Shown here: piece after piece, positions 45,112 through 51,785 of the stretch
How positions within the stretch are numbered: position 1 is the first letter of the stretch
How the letters are laid out: every line of letters starts with the position of its first letter
DNA from: an uncultured archaeon
GTDB taxonomy: Archaea > Thermoplasmatota > E2 > DHVEG-1
Length of the DNA: 62,526 nucleotides
Assembly (NCBI GenBank): GCA_902384685.1
Contig: CABMCU010000058.1
Coordinates: 1-62,526 of the forward strand
Direction: 5' to 3'
Position numbers and translations under genes: made by a program
The notes under the pieces: generated by a model
What the model saw: the letters and a program-made list of their open reading frames with translations, nothing else
Told to the model about the DNA's origin: nothing
The model's database searches: none

Positions 45112-46674
45112 TTATGGGAATCGTGATGTTGATTCACGCTGATCTACCATTATTCCATTCAGATACAATTGGGTTTTTAGAGAAGTCGAGACTAACGAAG
45201 GCACATCGATAGAAAGTTCTACCACGCGTTTCTCACCTACAGCAATCGATGGAATACTCATAGTTTCTTGATTGTAGATACGGCTTGTGTTATCGTAGAA
45301 CGCCCCTCGAATCTCTATATCGGATATAGATGTCGCTCCAAGATTTTCGATAATCATTGTTACGCTCACGTAATCAACCCCGGTGCTCATTGTAAATCGC
45401 GTTGCGTTTTTCCAACTAAGAATTAAAAGTGGCCGTGAAGAAATAGGGTACACGGTTACGTTCGAAATACCTTGATATTCAGGAGGAATTTTTCCAAGCG
45501 GCATAGAAAGTGCTGTGGTTTCTAGGAAATAATATTGGTCGATATAATACGAATACCCAACGATCGTTTCATTCAGATAGACACCAACTGCCATATGTTG
45601 AGGGAGTCGAATCAGTGACACATTATACCCAAGACGTTCCAGCAATGCCGCAGTCAGAATAGCTTTATCCTCACAATCTCCACGTTTTTCCTTTAACGTT
45701 TCCAAGGGATACCGTGGATATTCATAGGTCTTATTCTCAGGGTCATCTTCCTTATATTCCATGCCTTGTACAAATGATGCGATAAAATTGATTTTCTCTA
45801 CATTAGTTTTCAGGTTTTTAAGTGATAGGAGTTGATTAGCTAGAAACTCGAGATAACAGTCATCATATCGATCAAACACATATGCTGCGTAGTCGATAAT
45901 ATTAAATCGTTCTATACTTTTATAATAATCGTAGAGCCAATCTACCTCAGGGATTTTGAGTGTTTGAGAACCAAGGTACTGCCATCGATATATCCATGAA
46001 TCAATAGGATCTTTTTGAACAAGGGTAAGCGTTTTATTAAAAAGAACTTTTTCAGTGCTATCAAACAGTGAAAAATTCAGCTGATTACTTCCAGAGGGTA
46101 TATTGACAGGGAACATAAAACACGTTATTTGTGTTGTACGAGATGGTAGAATCACAGTTGGGAGGAGATAGGCATTACCTATATTCTCTCCTTGAGAAAC
46201 AGAAATATTAAAGGGGTATACAGGAAGATCACCAGAATTTTTAACACTGAGATGAAACGCTACTATTGAAGAATCGGTGTTGTTATTCCACCAATCCTCA
46301 TAAACAGAAATAAGAGAAAGATTATAACCGTTAAACTGTAGTTCATTTTCAAAAATCATATTATTTGATGAATCAACAGCTTTTAACGTGTATGCCCCAG
46401 CAACAACAGACGTTCGATATCCCGCAAGGTAAATACTTTCGTTGTGAATCCCATAGTAATATGTACCAGAGAACAGAAGGTTTTTTTGAGGACTGGTGAG
46501 CATGAGTGTAGAGGAATCAGAGGTGTTAAACCGTACATACATCCGAGGAAATCCACTATCGTCATCAATCGTAAGAGAAAGGAGTGTAAACTTCGTCTGC
46601 CGAAGCAAGGTACAACCTGAGAAAGAGCTTATCAAAAGGATAATGGTGACGAGTATTGTTTTGCCTAACGGCAT
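45112..46674 (-). CDS. Transglutaminase-like (cysteine protease fold) lipoprotein
   Basis: Lipobox-like LISSFSGC. Core RGDCEDKAILTAALLERLGYNVSLIRLPQHMAVGV (Cys...His). Many N-x-S/T sequons. Confidence 0.7.
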   Translation of the reverse strand: MPLGKTILVTIILLISSFSGCTLLRQTKFTLLSLTIDDDSGFPRMYVRFNTSDSSTLMLTSPQKNLLFSGTYYYGIHNESIYLAGYRTSVVAGAYTLKAVDSSNNMIFENELQFNGYNLSLISVYEDWWNNNTDSSIVAFHLSVKNSGDLPVYPFNISVSQGENIGNAYLLPTVILPSRTTQITCFMFPVNIPSGSNQLNFSLFDSTEKVLFNKTLTLVQKDPIDSWIYRWQYLGSQTLKIPEVDWLYDYYKSIERFNIIDYAAYVFDRYDDCYLEFLANQLLSLKNLKTNVEKINFIASFVQGMEYKEDDPENKTYEYPRYPLETLKEKRGDCEDKAILTAALLERLGYNVSLIRLPQHMAVGVYLNETIVGYSYYIDQYYFLETTALSMPLGKIPPEYQGISNVTVYPISSRPLLILSWKNATRFTMSTGVDYVSVTMIIENLGATSISDIEIRGAFYDNTSRIYNQETMSIPSIAVGEKRVVELSIDVPSLVSTSLKTQLYLNGIMVDQRESTSRFP

Positions 46675-47888
46675 AACACCTTCATTTTACGTTCAATTAC
46701 TGTACCAAGCCGCTTCATACCTGTTTCTAACTGTTCGTTTGTGGAATAAGAAAAATTCAGTCGCATGGAGCTGCCACCACCACCGTCCACGCAGAATGCT
46801 TTGCCATGAACATACGCGACTTTTTCTTTAAACGCATCAAGAAACATAGCTTCTGTATCGATTTGTTCTGGGAGTGTGACCCAGGCAAACATCCCTCCAT
46901 TCGGTTTGTTACAAATATATCCTTCTGGGAAATATTTTTTCATGGAATTCATCATGATGTCGCGTTTCGGTTTATACATTTCACAAATCTTCATAATGTG
47001 CAAATCAAGCGAACCACTTTTCATGAACTCATAGGCAATATATTGGGAAAAGCCAGCGGTGCAAAGATCCTGTGCTTGTTTACACAACGCAAGTTTCCGC
47101 ATGATATCCTCCGAGGCGATAATCCAGGCCAGACGGAACCCAGGTGCGAGTATCTTCGAAAATGTCGACATATAGACGACCCGACCTTCATCATCAAATG
47201 CCTTGATAGGTTTGACAGTGGAGCCATCGTACTGGAGCTTCCCATAGGGGTCGTCTTCGATAATGATCAAATTATACTCATGTGCTATTTCCACGAGTTT
47301 CTTCCGTCGCGATTCCGGCATTACAGTACCTGCCGGATTCTGAAACGTCGGGATTGCGTAGATAAATTTCACTGACATATCTTGCTTGATGAGCTCTTTA
47401 ATTTTCTCTTCAAGGAGGTCTACGCGCATTCCATCTTTATCTAAAGGGATTCCAACAAGGTTTGCCTCATAACTGCGAAATGCATTAATCCCCCCAAGAT
47501 ATGATGGAAGACCAACTAGTGCAATGTCCCCAGGGTTTAGAAAAATCTTTCCAACAGCGTCTAAGGCTTGCTGAGATCCGCTGGTGATCATGGTGTTTTC
47601 TGGGGTGACACCACCTTTCATGCTTTCTCGGATCGATCGTTCAGCGATCACTTCCCTGAGTTCTTTGATCCCTTGCGTTGGTCCATACTGAAGTGCGATT
47701 TTTCCATGATTACTTAACACGGTCTGAACAATGCCCTTCAAATCTTGAATCGGAAATGATTGAGGATTCGGCAATCCCCCGGCAAAGGATATAATCTCGG
47801 GATCCTCTGTTACTCTGAGCAATTCACGTATCTCTGATTTCCGCATCTTTCCTGCTCGATCTGAGTACAACTCGTCAAAGTGTGCCAT
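46665..47888 (-). CDS. Class I/II PLP-dependent aminotransferase (LysN/aromatic aminotransferase-like)
   Basis: 407 aa. PLP-lysine region STFSKILAPGFRLAW. Overlaps the downstream gene by 10 nt. Confidence 0.8.
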   Translation of the reverse strand: MAHFDELYSDRAGKMRKSEIRELLRVTEDPEIISFAGGLPNPQSFPIQDLKGIVQTVLSNHGKIALQYGPTQGIKELREVIAERSIRESMKGGVTPENTMITSGSQQALDAVGKIFLNPGDIALVGLPSYLGGINAFRSYEANLVGIPLDKDGMRVDLLEEKIKELIKQDMSVKFIYAIPTFQNPAGTVMPESRRKKLVEIAHEYNLIIIEDDPYGKLQYDGSTVKPIKAFDDEGRVVYMSTFSKILAPGFRLAWIIASEDIMRKLALCKQAQDLCTAGFSQYIAYEFMKSGSLDLHIMKICEMYKPKRDIMMNSMKKYFPEGYICNKPNGGMFAWVTLPEQIDTEAMFLDAFKEKVAYVHGKAFCVDGGGGSSMRLNFSYSTNEQLETGMKRLGTVIERKMKVLCR

Positions 47889-48437: not shown

Positions 48438-48620
48438 GACACACCTCCTATTGTACATGATATCCAATTTTGTGATTTAAATCTTCTTCTTGTTACTCCC
48501 TTATTTTTTTTATTTTATCAAAATAAATCAACAGAAGAATGTTTGATAAAAAAGATTATGAATAATGAATTTATGTCTACCACACACCAGACACATAAAT
48601 CTAAGAGAAGGTCATAGAAT

Positions 48621-48692
48621 GCGGATGTGATCTAGTGGTTATGATTGAGGCCCTCCAAGCCTCTTGCCCGGGTTCGAATCCCGGCGTCCGCA
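48621..48692 (+). tRNA. tRNA-Gly (anticodon UCC by hand folding)
   Basis: Acceptor GCGGATG/CGTCCGC, anticodon stem GAGGC/GCCTC with loop CCTCCAA, T-arm CCCGGGTTCGAATCCCGG. No encoded CCA. TATA-like ACATAAATC ~25 nt upstream. Confidence 0.8.
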
Positions 48693-48715
48693 TCTCTGTA
48701 TTCCATCAATTGTCT

Positions 48716-48833
48716 GCAGGGGTAGCCAAGCATGGCCAACGGCGCAGGACTTAAGATCAAAACACAAGAAAGGTTCGTGTGATGAGACATCCTGTCTCGC
48801 AGGAGTCCGAGGGTTCAAATCCCTTCCCCTGCA
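48716..48833 (+). tRNA. tRNA-Leu (anticodon UAA) with a 33-nt intron at the canonical 37/38 position
   Basis: Acceptor GCAGGGG/CCCCTGC, loop CTTAAG then intron 48756-48788, resuming A-TCCTG. Long variable arm, T-arm GAGGGTTCAAATCCCTTC. Confidence 0.85.
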
Positions 48834-48834
48834 C
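48811..48834 (+). repeat. Direct repeat copy 1 (3' end of tRNA-Leu): GGGTTCAAATCCCTTCCCCTGCAC
   Basis: Identical 24-mer occurs again at 49797-49820. Confidence 0.9.
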
Positions 48835-48997
48835 TTATTTCATCCTTACATAAAAAGTTAAGTTCTCCACCAGCAACAACCACAAAAGAGATTCTCTTTT
48901 AAGTCAGAGAGATTTTTCGTACCAACTTAAAGATTTTCTAAAAAAAGCTTATCCTTATGAACTTCAAAAACAATGCCGGATTCATGGATGAACAGGT

Positions 48998-49726
48998 ATG
49001 CGCTCCCGGTACGTACGAAAACCAGCATTGCGTCGCGTTGTAACCCTTCTTGATTATACGAAATGCAGGGTTCAACGTCTTCTCAGACACAGCTGGACAG
49101 ACCTTTCAGCTTGGACACTTGTCCTTACCAACATGATTACCATATCAGCTGCATTCCTCGAGCATTGGTCGTTTTCTACGATCATTTGGGTGTACTGGTG
49201 TCAAATCCTTATCATCGGGGTCTTTGCATTCTTGCGTACCATCGCGCTTACAGACCTCTCCTTAACCGGGGTCAATCGGATTCGTCTTCGATTCACTCTA
49301 AAGGGGAAGCTGCGAGCAGGGGCTTTTTTCCTCGCCCACTTCACGGTCATCCAGCTGTGTCTGACCTTCGTGCTTTGGCTGGTTATTGGGCCGGTAACCA
49401 GCGTAAACGGAACTATTTTGCTGTTCACTTCCCTGATGTTCTTCACCAATCATCTGTTTTCCTACATTTATAATAAAAAGAGGGAACGGGTGGTCCACAA
49501 GAATCTCGGGTTCGCTGTTCTTCGACCGTACCTCAGGATGCTACCTCTCTTTGTCGCATTTCTGTTCGCTGGTATCATCATTGCCTCGTTGTATCTTAGC
49601 CGTGAGGCACAGCTGGAACCGGTCGGATACCTCGTGCTCTTCGTGATGAAGACCTGCGCGGATGTCATCGCGCATAACCTGGAACACTCCCCACCTACGC
49701 AATGGAAAATTAGAAAATTTTCTTAG
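48998..49726 (+). CDS. Polytopic membrane protein, hypothetical (compositionally foreign)
   Basis: 242 aa with ~6 hydrophobic helices. Noticeably higher GC than neighbouring genes. Confidence 0.6.
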   Translation: MRSRYVRKPALRRVVTLLDYTKCRVQRLLRHSWTDLSAWTLVLTNMITISAAFLEHWSFSTIIWVYWCQILIIGVFAFLRTIALTDLSLTGVNRIRLRFTLKGKLRAGAFFLAHFTVIQLCLTFVLWLVIGPVTSVNGTILLFTSLMFFTNHLFSYIYNKKRERVVHKNLGFAVLRPYLRMLPLFVAFLFAGIIIASLYLSREAQLEPVGYLVLFVMKTCADVIAHNLEHSPPTQWKIRKFS

Positions 49727-49796
49727 TCAGTGCTATTTATCAGATTACTCGTTTGAATGGAGTGTTTACTGGTAAAATCGTGTTCTCTTCCCGACG

Positions 49797-49820
49797 GGGT
49801 TCAAATCCCTTCCCCTGCAC
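49797..49820 (+). repeat. Direct repeat copy 2 (orphan tRNA-Leu 3' end)
   Basis: Exact 24-nt match to 48811-48834. No upstream tRNA body. Confidence 0.9.
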
Positions 49821-49892
49821 ATTTATCTTTTATTAGTGGAATATATTAAATTTTTATCAGAAAAAATATGTTAAAATTTATTGTTTTAATTT

Positions 49893-50852
49893 TTATGATT
49901 TCGGGTGATCCTTAAAAAAATCCCATATTAAATCAGTAGCAGAAATTTCTATCGTTGGAACATCTCCATTTCTCCAACCGATCTTTCCTCCAGGCCACGA
50001 ATGAGTACCATTGACAATGGTATATAATACAACTTCAGTGTTATTCAATCCTCCAGCATACAAATCCATAATAATATTACCAGATTCACTTCTATTTCTC
50101 TGAGGGAACGCATCACATTGATTATGGTTAACAAAAAAAGAAATTGAATCATTGACACTCAAATAACTAAATGCTCCTTTAGTATCATTAGCAGTTGGTA
50201 TTCCTCCATCATAAGGAACTCTACTATCATTTTTACCATGAAAAACAATCACAGAAATTGGATAATCGGGCTCAGGGATACACCAAATCGAATCTTCCTC
50301 AGTTGCCTGTCCACCTATTGATCCTGCAACAGGAGCAAACGCAGCAAAAATATCAGAAAGCTCTGCACCAAGACGATAACTCATCATGCCACCGTTTGAC
50401 ATCCCTGTAACATAAATCATATTTCGATTAATAGCATAGTTTTTTTGCAGGTATTCAACCAAAGCTCTAATGAAACCAACATCATCAATATTATTTTCTA
50501 AAGCATACCCACAACAAAAACCACTATTCCAGGTAAGAAGAAAATGATCAAATATACCTGAACCATCAGGATACACAACTATAAAACCCTCTGCATCAGC
50601 TTTTTTTGAAAAACCTGTCAATTCTTCAATATTACCTGCATTCCCTCCCCCTCCATGGAGAACAACAACAAGCGGCATTTGATTTTCTCCATCATATGAA
50701 GGAGGCAAATGAAGAATATATGACCGAGATTGCCCATTGTAATCAAAGAGTTCTCTTTTTGTTAGACAACCTGAGAGAAAAAATGTTCCGATGAAACATG
50801 CAATAACGAAAAATGTAAAAATTATTTTTTTTCTCATAAATATAAGAAACAA
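49893..50852 (-). CDS. Secreted esterase of the PHB-depolymerase/LpqC (COG3509) family, lipoprotein
   Basis: Lipobox FLSGC. LVVVLHGGGGN, WNSGFCCG, nucleophile elbow GMSNGG. Confidence 0.7.
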   Translation of the reverse strand: MFLIFMRKKIIFTFFVIACFIGTFFLSGCLTKRELFDYNGQSRSYILHLPPSYDGENQMPLVVVLHGGGGNAGNIEELTGFSKKADAEGFIVVYPDGSGIFDHFLLTWNSGFCCGYALENNIDDVGFIRALVEYLQKNYAINRNMIYVTGMSNGGMMSYRLGAELSDIFAAFAPVAGSIGGQATEEDSIWCIPEPDYPISVIVFHGKNDSRVPYDGGIPTANDTKGAFSYLSVNDSISFFVNHNQCDAFPQRNRSESGNIIMDLYAGGLNNTEVVLYTIVNGTHSWPGGKIGWRNGDVPTIEISATDLIWDFFKDHPKS

Positions 50853-51134
50853 ATCATATATTAAGTAATTTTACCCAAATTAAACCAAAATCATCTTTTA
50901 CCATAGCTTTCTGAACCTGTTGCCGATGCAGGATAGCGTAGATAAAAAGAAAACGAATGAAATTGTAGACTGGTCAGGATTAGATTATTATCCATAAATC
51001 CTTATAATACCTATAAATTGGAGTTCAAATCACTTCTTTTACACTGCATAATACATTCAATAAATTAGACTATATCTTTTAGATAAATAACTTTTTAAGG
51101 ATAAATCAAATTCTTCTATCAACAAGGAGCGGTT

Positions 51135-51785
51135 ATGGAATCTCGATTGTTGCAAAAACTTGGGGATAAATCAATAACAAAGGATCAACTTTTAGAAAAA
51201 GTAAAACACAACTATGATTTAATTCCTGAACTTCTGAATGGGATTTTATCATCAAAACCCACGATTCGATATGGTTGCGGAAAAATACTTATAGATATAA
51301 GTCAGGAAAAACCAAACAAACTCTATCCTTATATGGATTTCTTTATAAAGCTTTTAGAAAATAAATATAGGATATTAAAATGGAACGCTATCATTATCAT
51401 CGCTAATCTTACAAAAATTGACAAAGAAAATAAATTTGAGTCAATTTTTGAGAAATATTATAGTTTCCTTGAAAACGACTATATGGTTACAGTTGCCAAT
51501 GTAGTTGGTAATTCTGGTAAAATAGTGTTAGCAAAACCGCATCTTACCCAAAAGATAACCGATAAACTGCTCACGGTTGAAAATATATCAACAACACCTC
51601 ATCTCAGTGAAGAATGCAAAAGAGTAATCACTGAACATACAATTAAATCATTTAATATGTTTTTTCAGCAAATAAAACAAAAAGAAAAAGTAATTTCATT
51701 TGTAAAAAAACATCTGAATAGCTCTAGAAAAACACTCCGAACTGAATCTGAGAAGTTTCTTAAAAAATGGGATAACTCTACTTGA
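51135..51785 (+). CDS. Helical-repeat (HEAT/ARM-like) hypothetical protein
   Basis: 216 aa, predicted all-helical by composition. No diagnostic motif. Confidence 0.35.
   Translation: MESRLLQKLGDKSITKDQLLEKVKHNYDLIPELLNGILSSKPTIRYGCGKILIDISQEKPNKLYPYMDFFIKLLENKYRILKWNAIIIIANLTKIDKENKFESIFEKYYSFLENDYMVTVANVVGNSGKIVLAKPHLTQKITDKLLTVENISTTPHLSEECKRVITEHTIKSFNMFFQQIKQKEKVISFVKKHLNSSRKTLRTESEKFLKKWDNST

What the first reader, a model, noticed from the sequence alone, without database searches (positions are those of the whole stretch)
48716..49820. GC-rich ~1 kb insert flanked by 24-bp direct repeats of the 3' end of an intron-containing tRNA-Leu(UAA)
Seen in sequence:
- GGGTTCAAATCCCTTCCCCTGCAC occurs at the 3' end of tRNA-Leu (48811-48834) and again, without a tRNA body, at 49797-49820.
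- The 962 nt between the copies hold a single gene for a polytopic membrane protein (48998..49726). Its GC content is visibly much higher than the surroundings; it even produces a long alternative-frame ORF, typical of GC-rich DNA.
- No integrase or other mobility gene is present.

Established knowledge: archaeal viruses, plasmids and islands integrate into tRNA 3' ends and duplicate the attachment core.

Inference: this is either a minimal integration scar whose integrase has been lost, or a very small mobilisable cargo cassette.
Basis: partly seen in the sequence, partly recalled or inferred. Interest (0 to 1): 0.6.

Follow-up and report, generated by a model that had tools for sequence, protein, structure and literature searches.

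The report
Integrase-less gene cassette at tRNA-Leu
A 1-kb, single-gene piece of foreign-looking DNA sits behind a leucine tRNA gene of an uncultured Thermoplasmata archaeon, and it is one of about 30 such cassettes per genome that end in a copy of the tRNA's tail, carry no insertion enzyme and move between genomes.

Summary
An exact 24-nt repeat (48811-48834 and 49797-49820) brackets 962 nt that hold one DUF6498 membrane-protein gene. That gene is a compositional outlier: GC 0.49, 99th percentile; codon usage, 0.2nd percentile.

It is not an isolated scar. The genome holds about 33 body-less copies of this tRNA-Leu tail, against 1-2 for every other tRNA. All 21 same-genus genomes searched have 2-24 matches, tRNA-Leu genes included, mostly as same-orientation arrays that bound roughly 1-kb units, usually with one gene.

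The same cassette occurs at 92-96% identity in three other contexts, and homology always starts at the core. About 40% of orphan cores carry a 10-bp palindrome (TTAnnnnTAA) exactly 4 nt upstream; tRNA genes never do.

Best reading: a cassette without its own integrase, inserted by site-specific recombination and mobilised in trans. The recombinase was not identified. Cas1, integron integrase and attC-like folding were all tested and excluded.

This scan has already noted similar integrase-less stacks behind tRNA-Leu in two other Thermoplasmata genomes. I found no published description in the papers I could search. I rate it a new variant of a known kind, closest to tandem accretion, CIMEs and tycheposon islands.

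The parts
48620..48694 (+). tRNA-Gly(UCC). Together with the aminotransferase at 46665-47888 (-), this is the conserved upstream flank of the locus.
   Evidence: aragorn and Rfam, 59.9 bits. Syntenic in 15 same-genus genomes.
48716..48834 (+). Intact tRNA-Leu(UAA) with an intron of about 33-36 nt (roughly 48756-48788). It acts as the insertion platform (attB/attL).
   Evidence: Rfam 40.7 bits against a gathering score of 29. aragorn -i. 92-98% identical in 14 of 15 same-genus genomes, 82% in the fifteenth (G007).
48811..48834 (+). Left core (attL): T-arm, 3' acceptor strand and discriminator of the tRNA, plus 1 nt.
   Evidence: Exact 24-mer.
48835..49796 (+). The cassette, 962 nt. It consists of a cassette-specific 5' end (48835-48896), a promoter-plus-gene module (48897-49728) and a 3' end carrying the site module.
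   Evidence: Homology to G016:C15, to JGI contig L284 and to metagenome contigs starts at 48812. Homology to G002, G015 and L283 covers only 48894/48897-49728.
48998..49726 (+). Cargo gene: a DUF6498 polytopic membrane protein of unknown function, GC 0.49.
   Evidence: Pfam PF20108, E 1.8e-25. Composition outlier. 40 close homologues, the named ones from Thermoplasmatota.
49766..49775 (+). Cassette-side palindrome TTACTGGTAA, one mismatch from TTACCGGTAA.
   Evidence: The palindrome family lies 4 nt upstream of the core in 44 of 110 orphan cores and 0 of 105 tRNA genes. Here it lies 4 nt upstream of the Glu-type core remnant.
49780..49796 (+). Truncated core that resembles the 3' end of tRNA-Glu(CUC). 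It runs straight into the Leu core.
   Evidence: It is part of a 14-copy module, palindrome plus 4 nt plus Glu-like core (reversed-pattern control 0). The G016 copy of this cassette ends in sequence that holds a tRNA-Glu-tail-like copy and no Leu core.
49797..49820 (+). Right core (attR): an orphan copy of the tRNA-Leu tail.
   Evidence: Exact 24-mer with no tRNA body.
49821..51020 (.). Probable older second cassette carrying an alpha/beta-hydrolase (esterase) gene at 49893-50852 (-).
   Evidence: Pfam Esterase_PHB and Peptidase_S9. The gene is absent from this locus in relatives. The unit is bounded by the degenerate core at 51021.
51021..51044 (+). Degenerate third core (6 mismatches in 24) in the same orientation.
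   Evidence: the repeat finder family D1. About 1-2 such matches are expected by chance in the whole genome, so one falling in this 1.2-kb slot and in this orientation is unlikely to be chance (my estimate).
51135..51785 (+). HEAT-repeat-like gene: the start of the conserved chromosomal flank downstream of the variable slot.
   Evidence: It lies 1.8-5.6 kb downstream of tRNA-Leu(UAA) in G004, G014, G015 and G017, with different content in between.

Best explanation
The 962 nt between the repeats are a discrete gene cassette that has no integrase of its own. It entered the 3' end of tRNA-Leu(UAA) by site-specific recombination between the tRNA's last ~24 nt and an identical core carried by the cassette. 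The event regenerated the tRNA and left a body-less copy of its tail at the far end. The cassette belongs to a large pool, spread across the lineage, of ~1-kb units that mostly hold one gene. These units stack head-to-tail behind tRNA-Leu genes and behind earlier orphan cores. Many of them mark their own side of the site with a 10-bp palindrome (TTAnnnnTAA) 4 nt before the core. Shown here: the cassette boundaries, the copy number, the arrays, the same cassette in different contexts, the palindrome, and the absence of a linked recombinase. Inferred: that the reaction is conservative site-specific recombination, that the enzyme is a tyrosine recombinase supplied in trans (by a resident or visiting element), and that the cassette passes through a circular intermediate.
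For: (1) Specificity. Only the tRNA-Leu(UAA/CAA) tail is amplified: 21 hits at <=2 mismatches and 33 at <=3, against 1-2 (<=2) for 37 of the other 40 predicted tRNAs and 4-5 for the three other tRNA-Leu genes, whose tails differ from this one by 3 mismatches. The 5' end of tRNA-Leu gives 1-4 hits, and the reversed-pattern controls give 0.
(2) Genus-wide arrays. All 21 same-genus genomes have 2-24 matches to the 24-mer (<=2 mismatches, tRNA-Leu genes included). Other genera of the family have 0-12 and other orders 0-3.
(3) Orientation. Sites lie in direct orientation in 29 of 29 multi-site genome loci and 52 of 54 metagenome loci.
(4) Cassette shape. Among 68 unique cassettes the median length is 1.09 kb, 63% hold a single ORF, 70% of ORFs are co-oriented with the sites, and the median distance from stop codon to core is 71 nt.
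(5) A hypervariable slot. The upstream flank is syntenic in 15 genomes. Between tRNA-Leu(UAA) and the conserved HEAT-like gene lie 0-5 cassettes with different cargo in each species.
(6) Mobility of this cassette. It is 95-96% identical in G016:C15 behind a different orphan core, 92% identical in JGI contig L284 behind a degenerate core that follows a tRNA-Ser, and ~96% identical in contigs from freshwater-sediment metagenomes. In every case homology begins at 48812, the core. The gene module alone sits between other cores in L283. A second cassette (radical SAM, C108) is 85-87% identical to G004:C6 and G017:C92; the G004 match runs core to core and the G017 match lies inside those limits.
(7) Cassette-side signal. 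The palindrome lies exactly 4 nt upstream of 44 of 110 orphan cores and 0 of 105 tRNA genes, against a background expectation of 0.0025 per window at <=1 mismatch.
(8) Foreign composition. This cassette is GC-rich in a GC-poor host. Cassettes in GC-rich relatives are GC-poor (L074, L101).
(9) Core decay. Mismatches to the tRNA core increase with rank behind the tRNA (1.9, then 3.1, then 3.3; Spearman 0.27, p 0.04; arrays are not independent).
Against: No recombinase could be tied to the system. None of the 8 PF00589 genes of this genome lies on a contig that carries a core. Integrase-like genes lie within the ~8-kb loci of only 4 of 118 genome loci and 3 of 77 metagenome loci. No integrase family is conserved across the genus. 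No exact empty site (tRNA-Leu followed directly by 49821 onward) was found in any relative. No circular junction was seen. The read joints across the cassette are ambiguous, because the core fits both positions. Orientation bias of cargo ORFs is only 70%. Many arrays lie far from any tRNA-Leu gene, which needs an extra assumption: either orphan cores serve as targets, or arrays are moved by rearrangement.
Confidence: 0.7

Rival explanations
1. This is the scar of a larger integrated virus or plasmid. A normal integrase-bearing element entered tRNA-Leu and later lost everything by deletion except one cargo gene and its two att sites.
For: Classical arrangements exist in the lineage. One is tRNA-Leu(CAG) followed directly by a 278-aa tyrosine recombinase (L078). 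Another is a 191-aa recombinase 40 nt upstream of a Leu core in G005:C85 and in JGI contigs L285-L288. A third is a 5.2-kb unit bounded by cores that carries a XerC/D-like integrase (L249). Some orphan cores show tRNA homology that extends further upstream, as long attP sites would.
Against: Independent deletions would not produce about 30 units per genome with the same size class, the same stop-to-core spacing and a shared palindrome at a fixed 4-nt distance. The same 962-nt unit recurs with the same left boundary in other contexts. Both cores here are perfect, which points to a recent event.
Confidence: 0.12
2. The cassettes are exchanged by homologous recombination. The repeated cores (with flanking cassette ends) act only as short portable homology that lets imported arrays replace resident cassettes, with no dedicated recombinase.
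For: No linked recombinase was found. The gene module 48897-49728 occurs in two different cassette frames with unrelated ends, which indicates recombination inside cassettes as well.
Against: 24 nt is very short for RadA-type recombination (general knowledge, not tested here). This reading does not explain why only one tRNA tail is amplified. It does not explain the fixed-distance palindrome on the cassette side. It also does not explain the strictly direct orientation.
Confidence: 0.1
3. The repeats are target-site duplications made by a casposon or another transposon, or the second copy is the remnant of a duplicated tRNA-Leu gene.
For: Family 2 casposons of Methanosarcina insert into tRNA-Leu genes and form tandem arrays separated by a shared target-site duplication (PMC4779613).
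Against: Cas1 (PF01867) was not found in this genome, and it clears the Pfam cut-off with a full-length match in only one of 22 genus genomes (G020); a second marginal hit (G019, 23.6 bits) covers only part of the domain in a 671-aa frame. I saw no terminal inverted repeats when I compared the two cassette ends by eye. The repeat is 24 nt, whereas related casposons at tRNA-Leu make 14-nt duplications. No tRNA model matches upstream of 49797. The 5' halves of tRNA-Leu are not amplified.
Confidence: 0.03

Closest known systems
CIMEs (cis-mobilizable elements) and tandem accretion at tRNA or other att sites in bacteria (ICESt1/ICESt3 family of Streptococcus; definition in PMC6323972)
   Same: The element lacks integration and transfer genes but keeps intact attL and attR. 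It sits in tandem with other units that share the same att. The presumed mobilisation is by a cognate integrase encoded elsewhere (for the definition; for the pattern).
   Different: The host is archaeal. The units are much smaller (median 1.1 kb, usually one gene) and far more numerous (about 30 per 2-Mb genome, at many loci). There is a cassette-side palindrome. No cognate ICE-like helper was identified.
Tycheposon-built genomic islands of Prochlorococcus (bioRxiv 10.1101/2020.12.28.424599)
   Same: Elements enter tRNA genes repeatedly. New arrivals push older ones further in. Partial tRNA copies separate the units, and degraded remnants accumulate. The cargo is niche-related.
   Different: Tycheposons carry a recombinase and usually replication genes, and they number 1-2 per genome. 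Here nearly every unit is a bare cargo gene, and a single tRNA tail dominates.
Integron gene cassettes, including archaeal integrons (bioRxiv 10.1101/2022.02.06.479319)
   Same: Arrays of short units, mostly single-gene and mostly co-oriented. Each unit ends in a recombination site. Content differs between close relatives. The cargo is diverse accessory genes: flavodoxin, ICMT-like, radical SAM, Imm5-like, peptidase, beta-helix.
   Different: There is no IntI next to the platform. The platform is a tRNA gene. The cassette sites show no attC-like single-strand fold (z-scores -1.8 to +1.5). Several cassettes carry what looks like their own TATA-box promoter, judged from sequence only.
Archaeal tRNA-targeting integrative elements and tandem arrays (Thaumarchaeota iMGE survey, PMC6563490; pTN3 integrase acting on tRNA-Leu genes in Thermococcales, PMC5495485, known to me only from its abstract, title and term counts)
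   Same: The att core equals a tRNA 3' end, and the same site is re-used to form arrays.
   Different: Those elements are 2.6-98 kb and are defined by their integrase. The units here have none.

Membership tests
tRNA-integrated element made by site-specific (tyrosine-recombinase type) integration | Direct repeats identical to the 3' part of the target tRNA, with the tRNA gene regenerated | tested here: met
   Exact 24-nt repeat. The tRNA-Leu(UAA) is intact.
tRNA-integrated element made by site-specific (tyrosine-recombinase type) integration | Integrase gene inside the element, next to an att site | tested here: not met
   The only long ORF is DUF6498. No PF00589 hit lies on this contig.
tRNA-integrated element made by site-specific (tyrosine-recombinase type) integration | Empty site in relatives (tRNA followed directly by the distal flank) | tested here: inconclusive
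   Relatives have the same tRNA locus with 0-5 other cassettes and the same distal HEAT-like gene. None has 49821 onward directly behind the tRNA.
CIME (cis-mobilizable element) | Retains attL and attR but has lost the integration and transfer genes | tested here: met
   Definition from PMC6323972.
CIME (cis-mobilizable element) | Mobilised by a cognate integrase-bearing element that integrates into its att site (accretion) | tested here: inconclusive
   Integrase-bearing units next to Leu cores do exist (G005:C85, L249, L078). None is conserved or present in this genome.
Integron | IntI-type integrase adjacent to the attI platform | tested here: not met
   No recombinase gene lies on this contig. 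Recombinases lie within the ~8-kb loci of only 4 of 118 and 3 of 77 loci.
Integron | attC sites that fold as imperfect hairpins in single-stranded DNA | tested here: not met
   Eight cassette 3' ends folded as ssDNA gave z-scores from -1.84 to +1.45 against shuffles.
Integron | Arrays of short, mostly single-ORF, co-oriented cassettes that vary between relatives | tested here: met
   Median 1.09 kb, 63% single ORF, 70% co-oriented. Content varies between species.
Casposon | Cas1 casposase, terminal inverted repeats and a short target-site duplication | tested here: not met
   Cas1 was not found in this genome and gives a full-length match above the cut-off in only 1 of 22 genus genomes. I saw no terminal inverted repeats when comparing the cassette ends by eye.
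Tycheposon | Hallmark recombinase with or without a replication module, carried with the cargo | tested here: not met

The most novel reading that the evidence does not exclude
Thermoplasmata archaeal MAGs of the window's GTDB family, several of them deposited as Methanomassiliicoccaceae, run an integron-like gene-capture system. In it, tRNA-Leu (and to a lesser extent tRNA-Glu) 3' ends serve as the platform. Cassettes carry a bipartite site (a TTAnnnnTAA palindrome, 4 nt, then a tRNA-tail core). A recombinase encoded elsewhere shuffles single genes within and between genera. One candidate is the ~184-aa tyrosine recombinase with only a catalytic domain, which lies 40 nt from a Leu core in G005 and in L285. 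This would be a dedicated, undescribed route of horizontal gene transfer in archaea, rather than debris from ordinary proviruses.
Probability: 0.4. Interest if true: 0.8.

Novelty: new variant of a known kind. Interest (0 to 1): 0.62.

Why it matters
If the cassettes are a working system, they give these widespread sediment and wetland archaea a way to swap single accessory genes across genera without plasmids or proviruses. The cargo seen includes membrane proteins, surface beta-helix proteins, peptidases, radical-SAM enzymes and immunity proteins. The cassettes would also account for a sizeable part of the strain-level gene-content variation in this group, and for the fragmentation of its MAGs, since many contigs end at the core. 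The question is directly testable: the site is defined to the base, on both the cassette side and the tRNA side. There is a practical point as well. The many tRNA-tail copies mislead tRNA finders and break metagenome assemblies.

Tried and rejected
- Casposons. Cas1 (PF01867) is absent from this genome and gives a full-length match above the cut-off in only 1 of 22 genus genomes. Rejected.
- Integron. No IntI, and no attC-like fold. Rejected as membership.
- XerC/D-like integrase inside a core-bounded unit (L249, the same locus as G003:C182). Its close homologues at 81-84% identity, in 9 contigs (three proteins, roughly three distinct loci), have no Leu core beside the gene; one weak 4-mismatch match lies about 7 kb away in two overlapping contigs. 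I treat it as cargo or an unrelated insertion.
- L078 integrase, directly behind tRNA-Leu(CAG). No close homologue in 41 relatives.
- G005 191-aa recombinase. It belongs to a real family of ~175-191-aa enzymes with only a catalytic domain (362 proteins). A Leu core lies 40 nt downstream in only 2 of 4 distinct contexts at >=86% identity, and in none of the more distant ones. The family was not found in G000. I keep it as a lead only.
- Clustering of 987 ORFs within 3 kb of cores. This gave cargo and housekeeping neighbours and no recurrent recombinase.
- IMG/VR scan. One hit, on a terminase-bearing contig with the core behind an ABC-ATPase/GNAT gene and no integrase.
- Read laying. Joints that skip the cassette have only 20-25 nt on one side, and the core fits both positions, so they show neither an empty site nor a circle. 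The runs held at most 16% of the stretch's words, so I claim no habitat from them.
- The coincidence of 248-250-aa ORFs near several arrays. They turned out to be unrelated proteins.
Full report
**The observation**

The 24-mer GGGTTCAAATCCCTTCCCCTGCAC occurs exactly twice in the window, at 48811-48834 and 49797-49820. About 2e-5 such exact direct pairs are expected by chance in 62.5 kb.

The first copy is the end of an intron-bearing tRNA-Leu(UAA) at 48716-48834 (Rfam 40.7 bits; aragorn with introns). It lies 21 nt after a tRNA-Gly(UCC). The second copy has no tRNA body; no Rfam hit appears even at E<=1.

The 962 nt between the copies hold one long ORF, 48998-49726. It is a DUF6498 protein (E 1.8e-25) with several hydrophobic segments.

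Among 1414 ORFs of at least 150 aa in the genome, this ORF has:
- GC 0.488, the 98.9th percentile
- GC3 0.576, z = 3.05
- synonymous-codon log-likelihood z = -3.76, the 0.2nd percentile

**Scale**

The window is contig C58 of a 2.06-Mb, 85%-complete MAG. Earlier notes of this scan and the public record titles of its genus-mates call it an uncultured Thermoplasmata archaeon.

The genome holds 33 matches to the 24-mer at <=3 mismatches and 39 at <=4, with reversed-pattern controls of 0. Five matches are the real tRNA-Leu genes and one is tRNA-Gly(GCC). That leaves about 33 body-less copies on some 20 contigs.

No other tRNA tail behaves this way. Thirty-seven of the other 40 predicted tRNAs give 1-2 hits at <=2 mismatches. 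The three other tRNA-Leu genes, whose tails differ from this one by 3 mismatches, give 4-5. The 5' ends of tRNA-Leu give only 1-4 hits, the genes themselves.

Across relatives the counts of the 24-mer at <=2 mismatches (tRNA-Leu genes included) are:
- all 21 same-genus genomes: 2-24
- other genera of the family: 0-12
- other orders: 0-3

**Architecture**

The copies occur as same-orientation arrays. This holds for every one of 29 multi-site loci from the species-genome collection and for 52 of 54 metagenome loci.

Sixty-eight unique units bounded by adjacent cores have a median length of 1.09 kb. Of these, 63% hold a single ORF, 70% of ORFs point the same way as the cores, and the stop codon lies a median of 71 nt before the next core.

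Cargo is diverse accessory material: flavodoxin, an ICMT-like membrane methyltransferase, radical-SAM, Imm5-like, transglutaminase-like, M14 peptidase, beta-helix surface proteins and others.

**The locus in relatives**

The aminotransferase, tRNA-Gly and tRNA-Leu(UAA) are syntenic in 15 same-genus genomes. What follows the tRNA differs in each species: 0 to 5 cassettes. The HEAT-like gene that follows in this window (51135-51785) reappears 1.8-5.6 kb downstream in G004, G014, G015 and G017.

In this window the slot holds two things. One is the DUF6498 cassette. The other is an esterase gene on the other strand (49893-50852), closed by a degenerate third core at 51021-51044 with 6 mismatches in the same orientation. 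The esterase is therefore probably an older second cassette.

Cores decay with rank behind the tRNA. Mean mismatches are 1.9, 3.1 and 3.3 for ranks 1-3. The correlation is weak (Spearman 0.27, p 0.04) and the arrays are not independent.

**Mobility of this very cassette**

- G016:C15 carries it at 95-96% nucleotide identity, with an 85-nt deletion in the ORF. Homology starts at 48812 (the core) and ends at 49788. What precedes it is another orphan core in a different neighbourhood.
- JGI contig L284 carries it at 92% from 48812 onward, behind a degenerate core about 95 nt after a tRNA-Ser.
- Contigs from three freshwater-sediment or wetland metagenomes match from 48812, with about 72 unlike bases before that point; the one full-length match (X2, 1180 nt) is ~96% identical. 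These may be the same population as G016.
- In G002, G015 and JGI contig L283, only the promoter-plus-gene module (48894/48897-49728, 90-92%) is shared. In L283 it sits between two other Leu cores, with different cassette ends. The downstream site in G015 is a decayed version of the L283 one.
- A second cassette of this genome (radical SAM, contig C108) is 85% identical, core to core, to G004:C6 and 87% identical over a span inside those limits to G017:C92.

Composition points the same way. This cassette is GC-rich in a GC-poor host, while cassettes behind tRNA-Leu in GC-rich relatives are GC-poor (L074, L101). The DUF6498 subfamily itself is confined to 40 close homologues; the only ones that carry an organism name are from Thermoplasmatota. 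In GC-richer genera it sits next to tRNA-Ile. The donor was therefore probably a related, GC-richer genus.

**A cassette-side signal**

A 10-bp palindrome, TTACCGGTAA (more generally TTAnnnnTAA), lies exactly 4 nt upstream of the core in 44 of 110 non-redundant orphan cores at <=2 mismatches, and in 25 at <=1. It precedes 0 of 105 tRNA-Leu genes. The background expectation is 0.0025 per window at <=1 mismatch.

In the window the palindrome is at 49766-49775. It is followed by 4 nt and then by a 17-nt remnant of a second core type that resembles the 3' end of tRNA-Glu(CUC). That remnant runs straight into the Leu core.

The palindrome-4nt-Glu-like module has 14 copies in the genome (control 0). 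Five copies lie 16-20 nt after a Leu core and three are fused to one. I cannot explain these composite sites. They suggest that one recombination system, or two related ones, uses both tRNA tails.

The sites do not fold as single strands (z-scores -1.8 to +1.5). They are therefore not attC-like.

**Mechanism**

The simplest account is conservative site-specific recombination between a cassette-borne site (palindrome plus core) and the tRNA tail or an earlier orphan core. New cassettes would enter next to the tRNA. This is inference.

The enzyme was not found:
- None of the eight PF00589 genes of this genome is on a contig that carries a core; four sit at other tRNAs (Thr, Ser, Arg, Asn).
- Recombinase genes lie within the ~8-kb loci of only 4 of 118 genome loci and 3 of 77 metagenome loci.
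- No integrase family is conserved in the genus.
- Clustering of 987 neighbouring ORFs gave no recurrent recombinase.

Three leads remain:
- A 278-aa recombinase directly behind tRNA-Leu(CAG) in a Methanomassiliicoccaceae MAG (L078).
- A XerC/D-like integrase inside one core-bounded 5.2-kb unit (L249). Its close homologues have no core beside them.
- A family of ~175-191-aa tyrosine recombinases with only a catalytic domain (362 proteins). One member lies 40 nt before a Leu core in G005 and in JGI contigs L285-L288. In L285-L288, the sequence after the core resembles the 5' end of the window's cassette. Two other close members have no core nearby.

Cas1 is absent.

**Comparison with the known**

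The element meets the definition of a CIME: attL and attR are kept, and integration and transfer genes are absent (PMC6323972). The arrays recall tandem accretion and the tycheposon-built islands of Prochlorococcus, where partial tRNAs separate successive arrivals. They also recall arrays of archaeal integrated elements.

It differs from these in several ways: unit size, copy number, dispersal over many loci, the palindrome-tagged site, and the lack of any identified helper. It works like an integron array but fails the integron membership tests (no IntI, no attC fold).

Full-text searches found no description of such arrays in Thermoplasmata or Methanomassiliicoccales. This is absence from the papers I could search, not proof of novelty.

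This scan has noted the same kind of integrase-less stacks behind tRNA-Leu in two other Thermoplasmata genomes, and look-alikes in CPR bacteria. I did not re-test those.

**Verdict**

I rate it a new variant of a known kind. The open and interesting part is the missing recombinase and the bipartite site.

Noticed in passing
window 49766-49796; G000 contigs C52:168, C54:4916 and 5482, C59:3541, C69:52, C71:22445, C88:242/325/2111/3721, C108:49187, C134:7206, C138:9375: A second repeat family of 14 copies: palindrome TTACCAGTAA, then 4 nt, then a core that resembles the 3' end of tRNA-Glu(CUC) with the T-loop replaced. Some copies lie 16-20 nt after a Leu core. Some are truncated and fused to a Leu core, as in the window. 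I have no explanation for these composite sites.
   Followed up: partly
window 49893-50852 (-) and 51021-51044: The esterase gene behind the DUF6498 cassette is absent from this locus in relatives and is closed by a degenerate third core (6 mismatches in 24). It is probably an older, inverted-ORF cassette.
   Followed up: partly
L046:8893-9015 (G000 C108:72893-73014) and the ends of contigs C6, C9, C21, C41, C50, C56, C87, C110: A ~120-nt sequence, 92-100% identical, sits at the ends of at least nine contigs of this MAG. It is a dispersed repeat or IS end that breaks the assembly. Several short segments of C108:68665-70365 also recur on many contigs of many genus genomes.
   Followed up: no
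L032:10677-11252 (G005:C85); proteins P0161-P0280: A family of ~175-191-aa tyrosine recombinases that consist of the catalytic domain only (362 proteins at E<=1e-15, very uniform in length). They share a conserved leader upstream of the gene. In one branch (L291, L292) a separate 175-aa ORF resembling the N-terminal SAM-like domain sits just upstream.
   Followed up: partly
G000 C139:1358-1525 and C134:11738-12635: aragorn calls a 'tRNA-Stop(tta)' with a 72-nt intron and a 'tRNA-Asp' with an 804-nt intron on contigs that also carry orphan cores (the first 147 nt from one, the second ~450 nt from one). They are most likely false tRNA calls seeded by tRNA-tail fragments.
   Followed up: no
downstream of many cores, e.g. 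L018:5712-5770, L026:2665-2720, and loose ends: Many cassettes begin with a shared promoter-like leader: AAGATTTAAATAaCCAAGGAT, then about 15 nt, then GGAGG and ATG. A T-run directly follows most cores. So each cassette may bring both its own promoter and a terminator for the unit upstream of it.
   Followed up: no
L280:29-2922 and G021:C102 (L272): Pairs and trios of adjacent tyrosine recombinase genes occur on short contigs in relatives and in metagenomes. They are unrelated to the Leu cores.
   Followed up: no
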